Program-made: the position numbers and the translations under genes
Notes under the pieces: model-generated
Told to the model about the DNA's origin: nothing
Database searches by the model: none
The model's input: only the letters and a program-made list of their open reading frames with translations
Shown: piece by piece, positions 12,960-54,640 of the stretch
How positions within the stretch are numbered: position 1 is the stretch's first letter
Layout of the letters: every line of letters starts with the position of its first letter
Source: the human T2T-CHM13v2.0 reference genome, Homo sapiens
Length of the DNA: 64,000 nt
Assembly: GCF_009914755.1 (NCBI RefSeq)
Contig: NC_060943.1
Strand: one strand, 5' to 3'

Positions 12960-13085
12960 TGTTCATCCCTCAAGAGCTCTCACCCTCTGCCATTGCAGGG
13001 GCTGTCTCCATGGAAACTGTAGCCAGCGTTTCCATGGAGAAAGAGCCCGCAGAGTCTGGAATTTTCCAGGCTCTAAAGGTGACTG
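12960..13085 (+). promoter_or_regulatory. P module copy A with two RFX X-box-like palindromes
   Basis: TCCCTCAAGAG (12966); GTCTCCATGGAAAC (13004-13017); GTTTCCATGGAGAA (13028-13041); GGAATTTTCCAGGCTCT (13058-13074); donor-like AAG/GTGACT. Confidence 0.65.
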
Positions 13086-13107
13086 CAAAAACATCTCAGC
13101 ACATCTC

Positions 13108-13395
13108 CAGAACTGGGCTGCCCAACATGGCGGCCACTGGCCACAGGTGGCCTGACCACTTGAAATGTGGCCGGTCCCCGAAGAGACATGCTGTCGTGGC
13201 AAAGCACACAGTGGATTTTGAGGACTTGGTACAAAAAAATTTTTTTTAATTGAAATATCGCTAATAATTTTTGTATTGATTAGTTTTACCTATCTTTTTT
13301 TTTTTTAAACAGCCGTTGCTAGAAAACTTAGATTTACATACATGGTTCACATTTGTGGCTGAAATTTTATTTCTGTTGGGTGGCATTCTTCTAGA
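13108..13395. mobile_element. MER33-type hAT MITE
   Basis: GCTGCCCAA..GCCAC..CACTTGAAATGTGG..GGATTTTGAGGACTTGGTAC..CTAGAAAA..ATTTCTGTTGG. Confidence 0.7.
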
Positions 13396-13532
13396 GTATG
13401 AGTAACCGAATACATGAATGAATGATTGATTTTTGGTCAAACTGGGATTATTATCCATAAACCGTCACTTTCCTGCTTTTCTTCTTAGATGATTTGTTTT
13501 TTAAATAGTTCATTAAGTATCTTGGTTGAAAG

Positions 13533-13820
13533 ATTTTTTTTTTTTTGAGACGGAGTCTCACTCTGTCACCCAGGCTGGAGTGCAGTGGCGTGATCTCGGC
13601 TCACGGAAACCTCCACTTCCCAGGTTCAAGCGATTTTTTTGCATCAGCCTCCGAGTAGCTGGGATTGCAGGCATGTGCCACCACGCCCGGTTAATTTTTG
13701 TATTTTCAGGAGAGATGGGGTTTCACCATTTTGGCCAGGCTGGTCTTGAACTCCTGACCTCGTGTGATCCACTGGCCTCCTAAGGTGCTGGGGTTACAGG
13801 CGTGAGCCACACACCCAGCT
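13533..13820 (-). mobile_element. Alu
   Basis: antisense Alu dimer. Confidence 0.95.
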
Positions 13821-14401
13821 GAAAGGTTTATAGATATAATTTTTAGTATTGAATTAGGCTAGGAGTTAATTACAATTCTTTGAACAGCCATTGAAACACC
13901 ACTAATTTTTTTTTAAGGAACCATCTCCTCCTGAGTGTAAGACACTGCATCCTACTGCAGATGACGTCTTGTACGTAGATTCTACCCATCAGCTTCCAAC
14001 ATCTTGCTGTCCTTCACAATGTTGTCATGGCTCCCATGTAGATAGGCAAACCTTCCTGATTTTCATGCTGACCAGATGCCCAGAAACAGGATCGCGGAGG
14101 CAAAGGGTGTGTCTCCACACTCGGTGCTTTGATACCAATGACTCAAATACTTACCAGAAAGACTGTGCCTACCTACTTTCCCACTGGCTTCATCTGAAGG
14201 GGTCTGTCTTTATCACAGCGATGATTTTTTATTTTAGTTTTGACTTCCAGATTTTAAAAACATTATGGTGACATACACATAACACAATATTTACCACCTT
14301 AGCTACTTAAAAGTGTGCAGTTCAGTGGCCTCGAGCACATTGACATTGTTGTGCAATGGTGGTGTTATCACCGCCACCCATCTCCAGAACTCTTGCAAAA
14401 C

Positions 14402-14710
14402 GGACAGAAAGACAAACATGGCATGTTCTCACTTATTTGTGGGATCTAACAGTTGAACTCAAGGATGTAGAGAGTAGAAGGTTGGTTACCAAAGGCTGGG
14501 AAGAGTAGTAGGAGCTGGTGGGGAGGTGGAATGGTTAATGAGCACACACATAAGAAATGTTAGCAAGAATAAGACTTACTAAGACCTATTAGATAACACA
14601 ACAGGGTGACTATAGTCAATAGTAACTTAATTGTACATTTTAAAATAAAGACTGTAATTGGATTATTTGTAACTCAAAGGATAAATGCTTTAGGGGATGG
14701 ATAAAAAAAA
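14402..14710 (+). mobile_element. 5'-truncated L1MA-type 3' end with target-site duplication TCTTGCAAAAC
   Basis: ATGTTCTCACTTATTTGTGGGA..ACAACAGGGTGACTATAGTCAAT..GGATAAATGCTT; direct repeat at 14391 and 14711. Confidence 0.8.
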
Positions 14711-14924
14711 TCTTGCAAAACTGAAACTGTGTACCCATTAAACAACAACTCCCCATTTTCCCCACTCCAGCCCCTGGCAACCAACACTCTACTTTTTGAC
14801 TCTATGAATTTGACTACTTTTGGTAGTGGAATCATATAGTATTTCCTTTTGTGTCTGGCTTATTTCACTTAGAATAATGTCCTCAGGGTTCATCTATGTT
14901 GTAGCCTGTGTCAGAATTTCCTTT

Positions 14925-15460
14925 CTTTTATTCATTTATTCATTTTTTTGAGACAGGGTCTCACTCCGTCACCCAGTCTGAAGTGTGCAGTGGCGTGAGC
15001 ACAGCTCACTGCAGCCTCAACCTCCTGGGCTCAAGCCATCCTCCTACCTCAGCCTCTTGAGTAGCTGGGACTACAGGCATGCACTACCATGCCTGGCTAA
15101 ATGTTGTATTGTTTTTTTTTTTTTTTTTTGAGATGGAGTCTTGCTCTGTCACCCAGACTGGAGTGCAGTGGCACAATCTGGGCTCACTGCAAGCTCTGCC
15201 TCCTGGGTTCACGCCATTCTCCTGCCTCAGCCTCCCCAGCAGCTGGGACTACAGGCGCCTGCCACCACGCCCGGCTAATTTTTTTGTGTTTTTAGTAAAG
15301 ACGGGATTTCACTGTGTTAGCCAGGATGGTCTCGATCTCCCGACCTCATGATCTGCTCGCCTTGGCCTCCCAAAGTGCCGGGATTACAGGCATGAGCCAC
15401 TGCGCCCGGCAAATGTTGTATTTTTTATAGAGACTGCGTTTCACGGTGTTGCCAGGCTAG
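14925..15460 (-). mobile_element. AluJ-like element with a younger Alu (15111-15410) nested in its linker
   Basis: Two Alus; inner one flanked by AAATGTTGTATT. Confidence 0.9.
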
Positions 15461-52370: not shown

Positions 52371-52583
52371 CCCAAGGGCCAACCTGCTACATAAAATCTT
52401 TCATTGCCCGTCGTAATAGCAAGATAAACCAGGATAAAGACTTATGTATAGACTTAAATCCCAACGCTGAGTAAAAATATTCCATTTACTCATTTTTTTC
52501 TTCACAATCTAGTGATGCTTGATGATGGTCACATGAAAAAGAGCAAACATAGTGGATGCCCCTGCCTTCCTGAAACCTCCCTG

Positions 52584-52893
52584 ATTTATTTATTTATTTA
52601 TTTATTTATTTAGAGACGGAGTCACGCTCTGTCACCAGGCTGGAGTGCAGTGCTGCGATCTCAGCTCACTGCAACCTCCGTCTCCCCGGTTCAAGCGATT
52701 CTCCTGCCTCAGCCTCCCGAGTAGCTGGGATTCCAGGCGCATGCGCCACCACGTCCAGCTAATTTTTGTATTTTTAGTAGAGACAGGGTTTCACCATGTT
52801 GGCCAGGATGGTCTTGATCTGTTGACCTCGTGATCCACCCGCCTCAGCCTCCCAAAGTGCTGGGATTACAGGCATGAGCCAGCACGCCCGGCC
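52584..52893 (-). mobile_element. Alu with target-site duplication TGAAACCTCCCT
   Basis: antisense Alu dimer. Confidence 0.95.
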
Positions 52894-52975
52894 TGAAACC
52901 TCCCTTTTAAACCACAATTTGGGAAAGCAATTTGGTCCCATCTAGAAAACTGTTTATGGTTTGAAAATGCACGTA

Positions 52976-53122
52976 CCCAGAATCCTGGCCACATTTTACT
53001 CTTTCTGAGAAAGCCATTCCCTTCGTGAGTGAGAAGGCGAGAGAGAGATTTAGAGAGACTTTGGGCTTCACTCTAGCATGTGGGTCATTAATCAGGGAAA
53101 TTCCGAGTAGGTTATAAATCTG
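52976..53122 (-). repeat. partial duplicate of Y6 (50457-50605)
   Basis: CCCAGAATCCTGGCCACATTTTACTCTTTC.GAGAAAGCCATTCCCTTC.TGAGTGAGAAGGCGAGAGAG shared. Confidence 0.95.
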
Positions 53123-53469
53123 TGCTTTTCCTCTCCCCCAGCAGCTCCATTCCTAGAAGTTTCACCAGAGCAAAGTCTCCCACGTTTGGGCGAAGGAGAG
53201 AAGTACATGTAGCAAGCACCAGCTCTGTGCTGTTTCAGGGTTGTTTGTAACAGCAGAAAATCCTGGGGCCATCGACAGGAGAAGAGATGAGTGGATCCTG
53301 CTGTGTTCCCCTAGTCGGATACTCTGTAGCCATTTAAGTGGATGACTGAGTGCCATGTGCACCCGCACGGATACGCGTCAAGGCAGTGATGATGTTTGAG
53401 GATGACACGTCTCAATACCGCGCAGCTAGTCTCACCACCCAGTCACTCTCTGTCTCAGTCGACTCAGGC

Positions 53470-54205
53470 TGGGTCTCAGTCTGTTTGTGCTAACAAAATA
53501 CCACAAACTGGGTAATTTATGAAGAACAGGGATTTATTTCTCACAGTTCTAGAGGCTGGAAGTCCCAGATCGAGGTGTCAGTGGCTCAGTCCCTGGTGGG
53601 GGCTCTCCTCCTGGCTTGCGGACGGCCTCCTTCTCCCTGTGTCCTCACATGGTGGGAGAGACTTAGTGTCTGGAGAACTCACTTTCCCTTCTCATAGAGA
53701 CATGAAACCTGTCATGGGCCCTACCCTGGTGGCCTCATTTAAATCTAATCATTGGCCAGGCACGGTGGCTCATGCCTATAATCCCAGCACTTTGGGAGGC
53801 CGAGGCGGGTGGATCTCCTGATGTCAGCAGTTCAAGAGTGGCCTGGTTAACGTGGGGAAACCCTGTCTCTACTAAAAATACAAAAATTAGCCAGGCATGA
53901 CGATGGGCGCCTGTAATCCCAGCTACTCAGGAGGATAAGGCAGGAGTATCACTTGAACCCAGGAGGCAGAGGTTGCAGTGAGCCGAGATCGCGCCATTGC
54001 ACTCCAGCCTGGGTGACAGAGCAAGACTCTATAAAAAAAAAAAGAAGAAGAAGAAGAAGGAGGAGGAGGAGGAGGAGGAGGAAGGGGAGGAGGAGGAGGA
54101 GGAAAATCTAATCGCCTTCCAAAGGCCCTGCTTCCAAGCACCATCACACTGGGGCTTTGGGCTTCAACGTATGATTTTGGGGGGTAAACAAATGCAATCC
54201 ATAGC
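53470..54205. mobile_element. MST/MLT1A-type MaLR LTR containing an Alu (53753-54045) and a GAA/GGA repeat
   Basis: AACAAAATACCA.AAACTGGGTAATTTAT..ATTTATTTCTCACAGTTCT.GAGGCTGGAAGTCC..GCTTCAAC.TATGA.TTTGGGGG. Confidence 0.8.
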
Positions 54206-54489
54206 ACTGTCTATGTTCCTCATTGTATGAAGAACTGAAATTGTTTCCTGACAGCTTTGCAATTCCTGACAGTTTTGAGCTTTATCCACCAAAATCTACC
54301 TGGCAAGGAGAGCTAGGTGCATGCCATTCTCCCTAGAATCGAACACTGATCAGTTCTGGTTTTGCCTTGCAAGGAAGAAACATTCCTTACAGCACAGAGA
54401 GTGCAGGTGGGGATGGGAAACACGTTTTGTTCTTTTCCTGAGCTCATGTTGTGTTCCTTGTATGCTGGGACATTTTCAAACCCACGCAT

Positions 54490-54640
54490 GCTCACCTCTG
54501 GAGCCTGGACATTGCCCAGCCCTGAGCCTCTCTCAGCAGCCCCTTCCTGGCTCCCACACAAGCTGCAGTTTCCATGGCAACAGGCAGAGCTGGCCTTTGT
54601 CCTTGGAGCCTCCCGGTGAGAGGTCTTTAGGGAAAACAGG
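54490..54640 (-). promoter_or_regulatory. P module copy E with consensus RFX X-box and 5' splice-site-like sequence
   Basis: Minus strand: TTTTCCCTAAAGAC..GTTGCCATGGAAAC (54568-54581)..AATGTCCAGGCTCCAGAG/GTGAGC. Confidence 0.7.

What the first reader, a model, noticed from the sequence alone, without database searches (positions are those of the whole stretch)
12960..54640. Five copies of a tripartite RFX X-box promoter-like module (P)
Seen in unit orientation: A 12960-13085 (+), B 27001-27100 (+), C 39153-39290 (-), D 46970-47135 (-), E 54490-54640 (-). Each has a TTCCCTCAAGA-like box, then a 14-bp palindrome (GTCTCCATGGAAAC, GTTGCCATGGAAAC, GTCACCATGGACAC, GTTGCCGTGGAAAC, GTTGCCATGGAAAC), then a (T/G)TCCAGGCTC-like box, while the spacers vary in length and sequence. 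Weaker similarity extends ~300 bp upstream (GCTTGCAGGGGA in A and E; TGGATGTGTGGA in A and D). Established: GTNRCCATGGNAAC is the X-box bound by RFX1/2/3, regulators of cilia and spermatid genes. Inference: conserved motifs with free spacers point to selection on a cis-regulatory grammar. A and E carry a donor-like AG/GTGA at the same position, consistent with short first exons.
Basis: partly seen in the sequence, partly recalled or inferred. Interest (0 to 1): 0.85.

Follow-up and report, generated by a model that had tools for sequence, protein, structure and literature searches.

The report
Duplicated X-box elements upstream of PEG3
The five X-box modules are real and belong to a family of at least 22 old, diverged copies of one 0.6-kb element found only in the gene-poor stretch between the imprinted genes PEG3 and USP29, most likely RFX-bound enhancers rather than promoters, and partly described in print already.

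Summary
They are homologous copies, not merely shared motifs. A profile built from them finds 22 copies across 225 kb between PEG3 and USP29, and none in a reversed decoy. One further copy straddles the window end. Cross-validated profiles show the unit runs about 580 nt, from -340 to +240 around the X-box. Genome-wide pattern scans place the family almost only in this interval. The X-box is by far the best-kept part: pairwise identity 0.85 against 0.32 for the unit, and 10 of 22 strict X-boxes against 0.49 expected. This points to selection on RFX binding. The promoter and first-exon reading is not supported: the copies are CpG-poor, the GT donor at that site occurs only in A and E, and no gene is annotated. 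Kim and Ye 2016 (PMC4841594) already reported paired RFX1 and NF-kB motifs in the Peg3-domain conserved regions ECR3, 12, 14 and 16, called them putative enhancers and guessed at duplication. New here are the explicit homology, the copy number, the unit anatomy and the confinement to this domain. RFX binding at the copies remains untested.

The parts
12669..13235 (+). Unit A (full unit). X-box at 13004-13017. A second degenerate X-box at 13028-13041 forms an inverted repeat with the first. kB-like palindrome CTGGAATTTTCCAG at 13056-13069.
   Evidence: Sequence. Unit HMM positions 21-605, E 1.3e-71. Inverted self-match 12994-13051. By position this is probably Kim-lab ECR12: it lies 3.4 kb on the PEG3 side of the hECR13 amplicon mapped.
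26800..27279 (+). Unit B. X-box at 27050-27063. kB-like box GTGAAGTTTTCCAGGCTCT at 27078-27096. It has the shortest spacer between the X-box and the third box.
   Evidence: Sequence. Unit HMM positions 36-615, E 6.3e-62. By interpolated position and motif content it is ECR14 or ECR15 (inference).
38973..39541 (-). Unit C. X-box at 39219-39232 (GTCACCATGGACAC, one mismatch to the strict consensus). Third box TTTTCTGGGCTCT. A (GT)n run follows at about 39085-39147.
   Evidence: Sequence. Unit HMM positions 15-557, E 4.7e-80.
46833..47392 (-). Unit D. X-box at 47045-47058 (GTTGCCGTGGAAAC, with the central AT changed to GT, which creates a CpG).
   Evidence: Sequence. Unit HMM positions 4-587, E 9.5e-64.
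54342..54886 (-). Unit E. X-box at 54568-54581 (perfect GTTGCCATGGAAAC). Third box ATGTCCAGGCTCC.
   Evidence: Sequence. Unit HMM positions 4-618, E 3.3e-69.
63691..64000 (+). It continues to window position 64261; its X-box is at 64022-64035, outside the window.
   Evidence: Unit HMM positions 4-617, E 2.5e-59. Sequence. The genome-wide pattern matches at C19:60080020 and C19:60080094 belong to it.
16363..16777 (.). Anchor, not a family member: the human ECR13 COBRA amplicon of Kim and Ye 2016. It was used to place the units on the published ECR map.
   Evidence: Both bisulfite primers from S1 Table map here on the C-to-T converted + strand.

Best explanation
The five modules are members of a family of at least 22 paralogous non-coding elements. 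Each detectable unit is about 580 nt. All lie in the 250-kb gene-poor interval between the imprinted PEG3/MIMT1 promoter and USP29.

The units arose by a burst of local (segmental, partly inverted) duplication of one ancestral stretch, probably before the radiation of placental mammals. They then decayed to about 56% pairwise identity, except for two short boxes:
- an RFX X-box (consensus CTGTTGCCATGGAAACYGCAGC);
- 45-60 nt downstream, a palindrome CTGGAATTTTCCAG that fits GGRRNNYYCC (NF-kB/Rel-like).

Most likely they act as a homotypic array of distal, tissue-restricted enhancers. They would be bound by RFX dimers, with a second factor on the palindrome, and feed into the promoters of the PEG3 domain (PEG3/ZIM2, MIMT1/USP29). 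They correspond to the class of Peg3-domain 'ECRs' in which Kim and Ye 2016 found paired RFX1 and NF-kB motifs.

Shown: homology, copy number, confinement to this interval, extra conservation of the X-box. Inferred: RFX occupancy, enhancer activity, target genes, date of the duplications.
For: **Family and copy number**
- nhmmer with a profile of the five finds 20 copies at E<1e-4 in 314 kb. After three rounds this settles at 22 copies, E 6e-40 to 4e-11.
- The same profiles give 0 hits at E<10 in the reversed sequence.

**Unit length**
- An upstream-only profile trained on half of the copies finds held-out copies at the right place and strand, and nothing elsewhere at E<0.2.
- Five copies not used to train the unit profile match it over model positions 10-535, with E from 7e-39 to 5e-5.

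**Confined to this domain**
- CCATGGAAAC N30-60 TGGAATTTTC has 6 matches in 3.1 Gb, 5 of them in this interval. The reversed control has 0.
- The chr4 match scores only 9.4 bits against the profile.
- The 22-mer around the X-box, with up to 2 mismatches, has 18 matches, 5 in the interval; control 0.
- CTGGAATTTTCCAGGCTCT has only 2 exact matches in the genome, both here.

**Constraint on the X-box**
- It is the best-conserved 14-nt window of the unit, 0.846 mean pairwise identity. The next is 0.622 (the palindrome box) and the unit mean is 0.323.
- 10 of 22 copies keep a strict X-box, against 0.49 expected if those columns had decayed like the rest.
- All 10 strict X-boxes in the 314 kb lie in copies. 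A first-order Markov simulation gives a mean of 1.2 and a maximum of 4.

**Age**
- The tree is star-like, with terminal branches of 0.18-0.48 substitutions per site.

**Print**
- PMC4841594 (abstract, Results sections 5, 6 and 8, Discussion, S1 Table read) reports RFX1 (CCATGG) and NF-kB (GGAATTTT) motifs together in ECR3, 12, 14 and 16. It calls the ECRs putative enhancers and suggests they were duplicated.
- Units at -54.2k, 13.0k, 27.0k and 83.2k sit where ECR3, 12, 14/15 and 16 are expected. This was interpolated from mapped human amplicons and published mouse coordinates.

**RFX acts on this domain in the mouse**
- Peg3 is listed as an RFX2 ChIP-seq promoter target in testis (PMC4498915 Table S1).
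- Peg3 changes in Rfx3-/- (logFC -0.70) and Rfx2-/- (+0.44) ependymal cells (PMC7498320 Table S1; passages seen).
Against: - No binding, accessibility or reporter data for any of the 22 copies could be consulted. The mouse RFX data concern the Peg3 promoter or Peg3 mRNA, not the distal units.
- Kim and Ye report that most of the remaining ECRs, the RFX-type ones included, are fully methylated in the tissues surveyed. They note ECR14 marks only in limb and ECR3 hypomethylation only in olfactory bulb. Any activity must therefore be narrow.
- The copies were found with profiles that contain the X-box, which favours copies that kept it. This concern is reduced, not removed, by the upstream-only profile finding no X-box-less copies.
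- Twelve of 22 copies have 1-5 mismatches to the X-box consensus and may be dead.
- Orthology to numbered ECRs rests on interpolated positions, not on alignment to mouse.
- Cross-species conservation of units C, D and E is unknown. By position they are not among the 18 published human-mouse ECRs.
Confidence: 0.6

Rival explanations
1. One reading: each module is a promoter with a short first exon. Under this view the modules form an array of alternative RFX-driven promoters, active for example in testis or ciliated cells. Transcripts would run towards PEG3 from minus-strand units or towards USP29 from plus-strand units. The duplicated upstream exons of other imprinted loci would be the analogue.
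For: - X-boxes of RFX targets usually sit close to transcription start sites (PMC4498915 text).
- The PEG3/MIMT1 bidirectional promoter itself has an X-box in the same flanking context, CTGTTGC..TGG.AACCGCAGC, with a CRE and CCAAT boxes. The family consensus also has a CRE-like TGACGTCAG about 70 nt upstream of its X-box.
- A and E have AG/GTGA after the third box.
- Upstream alternative PEG3 promoters exist in this interval. U1-U3 are described in PMC4830991 (passages). The 2025 preprint 10.1101/2025.07.14.664778 (section 10 read) places human U1 between ECR2 and ECR3, next to the -54.2k unit.
Against: - The units are CpG-poor, observed/expected 0.08-0.63 with most at or below 0.32.
- The donor GT at the shared site is seen in 2 of 15 alignable copies. 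The consensus there reads CTCTGGAG-TCAG.
- No gene or transcript is annotated in the window (hub table).
- Perera and Kim found no H3K4me3 even at the proven alternative promoters, and they describe the ECRs as enhancers.
- None of U1-U3 is reported to coincide with an RFX-type ECR.
- Similarity of the family profile to the PEG3 promoter is marginal: E 0.0069 with the first profile, 0.46 and 0.72 with the refined ones.
Confidence: 0.12
2. The copies are relics of an old local amplification with no present function. Under this view the X-box looks conserved only because copies were ascertained through it, or because it was once functional.
For: - 12 of 22 copies have imperfect X-boxes.
- Most RFX-type ECRs are methylated and unmarked in the surveyed mouse tissues.
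- Profile searches favour copies that retain the core.
Against: - 10 strict X-boxes against 0.49 expected.
- The X-box window stands at 0.846 pairwise identity against 0.32 for the unit. The flanking stretches that look SINE-derived, an internal near-neutral yardstick, stand at 0.39-0.45.
- A profile without the X-box found no copies lacking one.
- At least four copies appear to be conserved between human and mouse at >75% identity by the published ECR definition (positions inferred).
Confidence: 0.1
3. The array is architectural rather than enhancer-like. RFX dimers on many X-boxes, and on the X-box of the PEG3/MIMT1 promoter, would hold the 250-kb domain together or mark it. One variant involves RFX1 binding to methylated DNA, which would be relevant to an imprinted domain.
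For: - There are 22 like sites spread over the whole interval, and an X-box in the shared promoter.
- Long-range contacts between domain promoters and the distal interval are reported (PMC3769284, one passage seen).
- A preprint title and abstract listed (10.1101/085571) states that Rfx2 stabilises chromatin loops. I did not read its text.
- That RFX1 binds methylated sites is my recollection only.
Against: - There are no contact or binding data for these units.
- The contacts reported in PMC3769284 point to the ECR16-18 region, not to the array as a whole.
Confidence: 0.1

Closest known systems
Peg3-domain evolutionarily conserved regions (ECRs) with RFX1 and NF-kB motifs: ECR3, 12, 14, 16 (Kim and Ye 2016, PLoS One, PMC4841594)
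   Same: - Same interval.
- Same two motifs side by side: their CCATGG and GGAATTTT are the centres of the X-box and of CTGGAATTTTCCAG.
- Same suggestion that neighbouring ECRs were duplicated.
- Units at -54.2k, 13.0k, 27.0k and 83.2k fall at the expected places of ECR3, 12, 14/15 and 16.
   Different: - The paper lists motif co-occurrence in 4 (to 6) of 18 ECRs and offers duplication as a guess.
- Here the elements are shown to be homologous over about 580 nt and to number at least 22 in human.
- C, D and E, and most others, are not on the published list as far as position tells.
- The family is essentially absent from the rest of the genome.
- S1 and S3 Files of that paper (ECR sequences and alignments; RTF and PDF) could not be read here and may show more than the text says.
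X-box promoter motif of RFX target genes (ciliary and spermiogenesis genes)
   Same: A 14-bp imperfect palindrome fitting the consensus. GTTGCCATGGAAAC is a typical strong site (consensus recalled; motif described in PMC4498915).
   Different: Classical X-boxes are single sites within about 100-200 nt of a transcription start. Here there are 22 paralogous sites in CpG-poor intergenic DNA with no annotated start.
MHC class II S-X-X2-Y enhanceosome module
   Same: It is a multi-box module containing an RFX site, with conserved order of boxes. The PEG3 promoter itself has X-box, CRE-like and CCAAT boxes.
   Different: - There is no CRE directly abutting the X-box in the units, and no conserved CCAAT box at the fixed 18-20 nt distance. 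ATTGG appears at that spot in only 2 copies.
- The layout of the MHC module is recalled, not taken from a call.
Duplicated upstream alternative promoters or exons of imprinted loci (SNRPN U exons; Peg3 U1-U3)
   Same: Repeated elements upstream of an imprinting control region, in an interval whose transcription in oocytes sets the imprint (10.1101/2025.07.14.664778, section 10).
   Different: No transcript is known to start at the units. U1 is assigned to an L1MB7 element, not to an X-box unit. The SNRPN comparison is from memory.
Exapted MIR/SINE-flanked enhancers
   Same: - The 3' end of the unit (...GGCTCTGGAGTCAG...AATCCCAGCCTGGCACACAGCAGGCACTCAATAAATATTTGT) and a stretch at about -450 to -330 look to me like MIR head and tail pieces.
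- The 3' segment alone recurs at three places outside the X-box cores: -5.2k and 19.4k away from any copy, and 151.6k about 560 nt from the 152k copy. An interspersed repeat would behave this way.
   Different: - The MIR likeness is recalled; no repeat library was on hand, and the genome DNA search was too insensitive to test it.
- The X-box and most of the unit lie outside the MIR-like parts.
- The family spread by local duplication, not by transposition.

Membership tests
RFX X-box site | Sequence fits GTHNYY AT RRNAAC (strict) or GTNRCC N0-3 RGYAAC | tested here: met
   In the window A, B and E fit the strict form; C and D miss by one base. Over the family 10 of 22 fit. The consensus itself is recalled.
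RFX X-box site | Occupied by an RFX protein in cells | not testable with these tools
   There is no ChIP data for these coordinates. The only evidence is indirect and from mouse: a Peg3 promoter peak and Peg3 expression change in Rfx mutants.
Peg3-domain ECR class with RFX1 and NF-kB motifs (Kim and Ye 2016) | Lies in the 200-250 kb PEG3-USP29 interval and carries CCATGG and GGAATTTT together | tested here: met
   Positions were fixed relative to the mapped PEG3 ICR, ECR5, 8, 13, 18 and USP29 promoter amplicons. A and C carry GGAATTTT. B has GAAGTTTT, D GCAAATGT and E GGCAATGT.
Peg3-domain ECR class with RFX1 and NF-kB motifs (Kim and Ye 2016) | More than 75% identity over more than 50 bp between human and mouse (definition quoted) | not testable with these tools
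   No mouse genome was on hand. Assignment of A to ECR12 and B to ECR14/15 is by interpolation only.
Promoter with first exon | CpG island or other promoter composition | tested here: not met
   CpG observed/expected is 0.30, 0.19, 0.23, 0.40 and 0.21 for A-E, against 0.65 for the PEG3/MIMT1 promoter. CpG-poor promoters exist, so this weakens the reading but does not exclude it.
Promoter with first exon | Splice donor kept at the same position across copies | tested here: not met
   GT at the aligned site is seen in A and E only, 2 of 15 copies that align there. Three others have a GT one base earlier.
Promoter with first exon | Mapped transcription start or annotated transcript | not testable with these tools
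   The hub's RefSeq table shows no gene in the window. No CAGE or RNA data were available.
Dispersed transposable-element family | Many copies scattered over the genome | tested here: not met
   The two-box pattern gives 5 of 6 genome matches in this interval, the 22-mer 5 of 18, and both exact matches of the 19-mer lie here. DNA searches with unit E and with the -54k unit found no other copy apart from an Alu-like end. These scans see only well-kept copies.
Locally duplicated (paralogous) element family | Profile-level homology beyond the shared motifs, validated on copies not used for training | tested here: met
   held-out copies; decoy gives 0 hits.
MHC class II type S-X-X2-Y module | X2/CRE box abutting the X-box, and a CCAAT (Y) box at fixed distance | tested here: not met
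   The consensus after the X-box reads CYGCAGCTGGAGTGGGG. ATTGG at that spot is seen in 2 of 22 copies (88k, 114k). The CRE-like box lies about 70 nt upstream.

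The most novel reading that the evidence does not exclude
The 22 units are decayed copies of an ancestral X-box/CRE promoter related to today's PEG3/MIMT1(USP29) bidirectional promoter. That promoter carries an X-box in the same CTGTTGC..TGG.AACCGCAGC context.

On this reading the array still works as one RFX-bridged system. 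RFX dimers on the distal copies and on the promoter X-box would pull the whole 250-kb interval onto the promoter. Some copies might fire as germ-cell alternative promoters whose transcription across the imprinting control region helps set the imprint.

That would explain why a 250-kb stretch without genes has been kept in all placental mammals.
Probability: 0.12. Interest if true: 0.75.

Novelty: new member of a known kind. Interest (0 to 1): 0.5.

Why it matters
The 200-250 kb upstream of PEG3 has no open reading frame, yet it is kept in order and spacing in placental mammals. Why this is so is an open question in the Peg3 literature (PMC4830991 and PMC4841594, passages).

About a third of the recognisable conserved pieces may be copies of one element whose best-kept part is an RFX site. 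That gives a concrete, testable handle: one transcription-factor family, 22 defined sites, and a promoter carrying the same site.

It also offers a clean natural example of enhancer (or promoter-derived) amplification. The paralogues act as replicates for reading which bases are under selection.

PMC4841594 links a deletion of a nearer part of the interval in cattle to stillbirths. Variants in these units could therefore matter for PEG3-domain dosage.

Tried and rejected
- **Whole-genome profile search.** A covariance model (sequence only) was built from 21 copies, but the tool does not accept it for this genome. I used the offered pattern searches instead.
- **Genome DNA searches.** Searches with unit E, the -54k unit and the 3' part of B found only the query itself, or an Alu-like end. 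They are too insensitive for copies at about 56% identity, so they say little.
- **Control regions elsewhere in the genome.** The reversed-sequence decoy and the genome-wide patterns stand in for them.
- **Longer duplicated blocks.** After masking high-copy repeats, all-against-all BLAST of +/-3 kb around the 22 copies shows colinear matches only from -100 to +100. Cross-validated profiles find nothing beyond -340 or +240. The 300-nt flank matches at 75-83% are Alu-like in length and identity, which is my reading.
- **Mapping mouse ECRs onto the human sequence by their ChIP primers.** ECR numbers are therefore interpolated.
- **Homology of the family to the PEG3 promoter.** This is marginal (E 0.0069, 0.46 and 0.72) and is kept only as a lead.
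- **Tree of the copies.** It is star-like, and neighbours are not each other's closest relatives, so the order of duplications could not be read.
- **Rfam scan of the window.** It gave only two tRNA hits, unrelated to the modules.
- **Literature.** Searches for PEG3 with RFX and X-box (0 papers), Peg3/RFX1/ECR and Peg3 domain/ECRs/duplicated/paralogous found only PMC4841594 dealing with these motifs. USP29/MIMT1 with RFX1-3 gave nothing relevant among the 15 papers listed of 358. A search for X-box/RFX/MIR/transposable element/enhancer/exaptation found nothing relevant.
- **Usp29 and Peg3 in PMC7498320.** They also occur in further gene lists of that supplement. I did not see the headings of those lists, so I draw nothing from them.

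Full report
**1. The observation**

The five sites are as described. Each has three boxes in order:
- a TTCCCTCAAGAG-like box followed by CTCTCACCTG;
- 27-45 nt further on, a 14-bp palindrome fitting the RFX X-box;

X-box-like palindromes are over-represented. GTNNCCNNGGNNAC occurs 6 times against 0.72 expected, and 0 of 100 shuffles reach 6. GTTGCCATGGAAAC with up to two mismatches gives 8 strand-matches against 0.70 expected.

A MAFFT alignment of the five has 58% mean column identity. Pairwise BLAST finds the copies from one another: C-E over 167 nt at 63%, E 7e-8, and shorter matches for A-B, A-C, A-E, B-C, B-D, B-E and C-D. So these are diverged copies of one sequence, not independent assemblies of motifs.

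**2. Where this is**

By the hub's table the window lies 80-144 kb upstream of PEG3, in the interval between the PEG3/MIMT1 promoter and USP29.

I fetched 90 kb before and 160 kb after the window. I mapped the published human bisulfite amplicons of Kim and Ye 2016 (S1 Table) onto the sequence:

| Amplicon | Window position |
|---|---|
| PEG3 ICR | -82.4k |
| ECR5 | -35.8k |
| ECR8 | -20.2k |
| ECR13 | 16363-16777 |
| ECR18 | 137.8-138.2k |
| USP29 promoter | 199.6-200.0k |

**3. The family is much larger**

nhmmer with a profile of the five found 20 places at E<1e-4 in the 314 kb. Three rounds of re-building converged on 22 copies, with E from 6e-40 to 4e-11.

Their X-box centres, in window coordinates, are: -54224(-), 13010(+), 27056(+), 39226(-), 47052(-), 54575(-), 64028(+), 68118(+), 69164(-), 83241(+), 88493(+), 91427(+), 97091(+), 107308(+), 114411(+), 120990(+), 125571(+), 145337(-), 152226(-), 156560(-), 159575(-), 170865(-).

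The same profiles give no hit at E<10 on the reversed sequence. A possible 23rd fragment lies at 115728-115814 (E 0.001).

Orientation changes in blocks: -, ++, ---, ++, -, eight +, five -. This fits multi-copy inversions or inverted duplications. The copy at 64028 begins inside the window at 63691, and its X-box lies 22 nt past the end.

**4. Size and anatomy of the unit**

Pairwise BLAST sees only the 200-nt core. After masking high-copy repeats, colinear matches among +/-3 kb around the copies are confined to -100..+100. The 300-nt flank matches at 75-83% look like Alu.

Profiles see further:
- An HMM of -330..-115 trained on nine copies finds held-out copies at 159.6k, 13.0k, 91.4k and 39.2k. 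One trained on the other eight finds 152.2k, 97.1k, -54.2k, 69.2k and 68.1k.
- All of these are at the right offset and strand, with E from 1e-13 to 0.013 and nothing elsewhere below E 0.2.
- Five copies never used for training match a 622-column unit profile over positions 10-535. Alu insertions split two of them.
- Nothing is recovered beyond -340 or +240.

Reading the consensus from 5' to 3':
- a ...CAATGTTTGTTGGATGAATGAATGA stretch;
- GTGATTTC(T/C);
- TTCTTCTGCAAAGACCC..TAAGGATGCATTTT;
- AACCACTGATGGGG;
- CCCATCCCC;
- a CRE-like TCTGACGTCAG, intact only in the -54k copy;
- TTCCCTCAGGAGCTCTCACCTG;
- GGCTCAGGCTGTTGCCATGGAAACCGCAGCTGGAG;
- a G-rich spacer;
- GAGACTGGAATTTTCCAGGCTCTGGAGTCAG;
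- then ..AAAATCCCAGCCTGGCACACAGCAGGCACTCAATAAATATTTGT.

The first and last stretches look to me like MIR SINE tail and head-plus-tail pieces. That is recalled, not tested, because no repeat library was on hand and the genome DNA search was too insensitive. In its favour, the 3' segment alone recurs at three places outside the X-box cores: -5.2k and 19.4k away from any copy, and 151.6k about 560 nt from the 152k copy. The X-box core never does.

If the MIR reading is right, the third box sits at the 5' edge of a MIR remnant shared by all copies. That would mean one ancestral locus was copied after that insertion.

**5. Not a dispersed repeat**

| Pattern | Genome matches | In this interval | Reversed control |
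|---|---|---|---|
| CCATGGAAAC N30-60 TGGAATTTTC | 6 | 5 | 0 |
| CTGTTGCCATGGAAACTGCAGC, up to 2 mismatches | 18 | 5 | 0 |
| CTGGAATTTTCCAGGCTCT, up to 2 mismatches | 126 | both exact matches | 13 |

- The sixth match of the first pattern, on chr4, scores 9.4 bits against the family profile, where true copies score 40-134.
- The other 13 matches of the 22-mer are single sites on other chromosomes or far away on chr19, as expected for ordinary RFX sites.

These scans can only see well-kept copies. So 'confined to this interval' is strong for conserved copies and unproven for decayed ones.

**6. Selection on the X-box**

In the 17-copy, 622-column unit alignment the best 14-nt window is TGTTGCCATGGAAA, with mean pairwise identity 0.846. 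Next come AATTTTCCAGGCTC (0.622) and GCCTCAGAGACTGG (0.507). The MIR-like stretches reach 0.39-0.45 and the unit mean is 0.323.

Outside the two motifs the 22 copies are on average 66% identical to the consensus. If the X-box columns had decayed alike, 0.49 strict X-boxes (GTHNYYATRRNAAC) would be expected; 10 are seen. All 10 strict X-boxes in the 314 kb lie in family copies, against 1.2 expected from a Markov model.

One caveat is ascertainment through the core. The upstream-only profile found no unit that had lost its X-box, which limits that bias.

**7. Age**

Mean pairwise identity of the core is 0.563. The tree is star-like, with terminal branches of 0.18-0.48 substitutions per site and very short internal branches, and neighbours are not closest relatives. 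That fits a burst of duplication long ago.

Published mouse ECR coordinates, scaled between the mapped human anchors, put:
- ECR3 near -54.7k (unit at -54.2k);
- ECR12 near 11.7k (A at 13.0k);
- ECR14 and ECR15 near 23.0k and 25.9k (B at 27.0k);
- ECR16 near 83.8k (unit at 83.2k).

If these are the same elements, those copies predate the human-mouse split. This is inference.

**8. What is in print**

Kim and Ye 2016 (PMC4841594) was read as abstract, Results sections 5, 6 and 8, Discussion, part of the Methods, the Supporting Information list and S1 Table.
- It reports that RFX1 (CCATGG) and NF-kB (GGAATTTT) motifs occur in ECR3, 10, 11, 12, 14 and 16, and together in ECR3, 12, 14 and 16.
- It calls this sharing 'very unexpected'.
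- It regards the ECRs as putative enhancers marked by H3K4me1/H3K27ac.
- It notes that most ECRs outside ECR5, 8, 9 and 18 are fully methylated in the tissues surveyed.

No other paper in the searchable library treats these motifs in this domain.

So the motif pair and the enhancer reading are known for about four elements. The homology over 580 nt, the 22 copies, units C, D and E, the confinement to this interval and the quantitative excess of intact X-boxes are, as far as these searches show, not in print. S1 and S3 Files of that paper could not be read and may hold more.

**9. Promoter or enhancer?**

Against a promoter:
- CpG observed/expected is 0.19-0.40 for A-E, against 0.65 for the PEG3/MIMT1 promoter.
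- The GT after the third box is private to A and E. The consensus there is CTCTGGAG-TCAG.
- No gene is annotated in the window.
- The known alternative PEG3 promoters U1-U3 are placed elsewhere (PMC4830991 passages; 10.1101/2025.07.14.664778 section 10). Human U1 lies between ECR2 and ECR3, close to the -54.2k unit.

For some link with promoters:
- The PEG3/MIMT1 bidirectional promoter has its own X-box, GTTGCTGTGGCAAC. Its flanks match the family (CTGTTGC..TGG.AACCGCAGC), with a CRE 27 nt upstream and two CCAAT boxes downstream.
- The profile match is only marginal: E 0.0069, 0.46 and 0.72.

Mouse data on RFX in this domain:
- Mouse Peg3 is listed as an RFX2 ChIP-seq target in testis, targets being genes with a peak at -500..+50 (PMC4498915 Table S1 and text).
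- Peg3 mRNA changes in Rfx3-/- (logFC -0.70, P 1.6e-4) and Rfx2-/- (+0.44, P 7.5e-7) ependymal cells (PMC7498320 Table S1; passages).

RFX factors thus act on this domain in the mouse. Whether they do so through the distal units is not shown.

**10. Verdict**

The best reading is an old, domain-specific family of duplicated regulatory elements whose RFX site is under selection, most likely tissue-restricted enhancers of the PEG3 domain. The promoter reading is unlikely but not excluded.

The finding is partly known. Its new part is the family structure, which turns a vague 'conserved desert' into 22 defined, testable RFX sites.

Noticed in passing
window 1664-1870 (+): Rfam finds two tRNA-like hits at 1664-1732 and 1792-1862. 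ARAGORN calls the second tRNA-Leu (anticodon aag). The sequence and spacing look to me like the mitochondrial tRNA-His / tRNA-Ser(AGY) / tRNA-Leu(CUN) cluster, which would make this an old nuclear insertion of mitochondrial DNA. The mitochondrial likeness is recalled, not tested.
   Followed up: partly
L002:9856-9969 (- strand) = window about -80144 to -80031: The PEG3/MIMT1 bidirectional promoter carries an X-box, GTTGCTGTGGCAAC, with the same flanks as the family. It also has a perfect CRE (TGACGTCA) 27 nt upstream and two CTGATTGG CCAAT boxes. Mouse Peg3 is listed as an RFX2 ChIP-seq promoter target in testis (PMC4498915 Table S1).
   Followed up: partly
window 97091 region (L014:2755-3322), outside the window: One family copy is much more CpG-rich than the others: GC 0.59, 32 CpG, observed/expected 0.63 over 580 nt. 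This is close to the PEG3 promoter island. It may be an unmethylated, active element.
   Followed up: no
window 42152-42630 and 47880-48219; 42738-42798; 39085-39147: There are long polypyrimidine/polypurine tracts, (CTCCT)n/(TCC)n of 340-480 nt, and (CA)n/(GT)n runs. One (GT)n run lies directly after unit C. A short related tract lies at 54040-54107, near unit E.
   Followed up: partly
window 55549-55843: The RefSeq 'enhancer/silencer' element lies about 1 kb upstream of unit E, in E's orientation. It is outside the 580-nt unit and shows no family homology in the profile scans.
   Followed up: partly
window 115728-115814 (L016:1728-1814), outside the window: A possible 23rd, fragmentary copy. 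It matches only the X-box-to-third-box part of the unit profile (E 0.0011).
   Followed up: no
window 68118(+) and 69164(-), outside the window (L011): Two family copies face each other tail to tail, about 1 kb apart. This is the only closely paired copies in the array.
   Followed up: no
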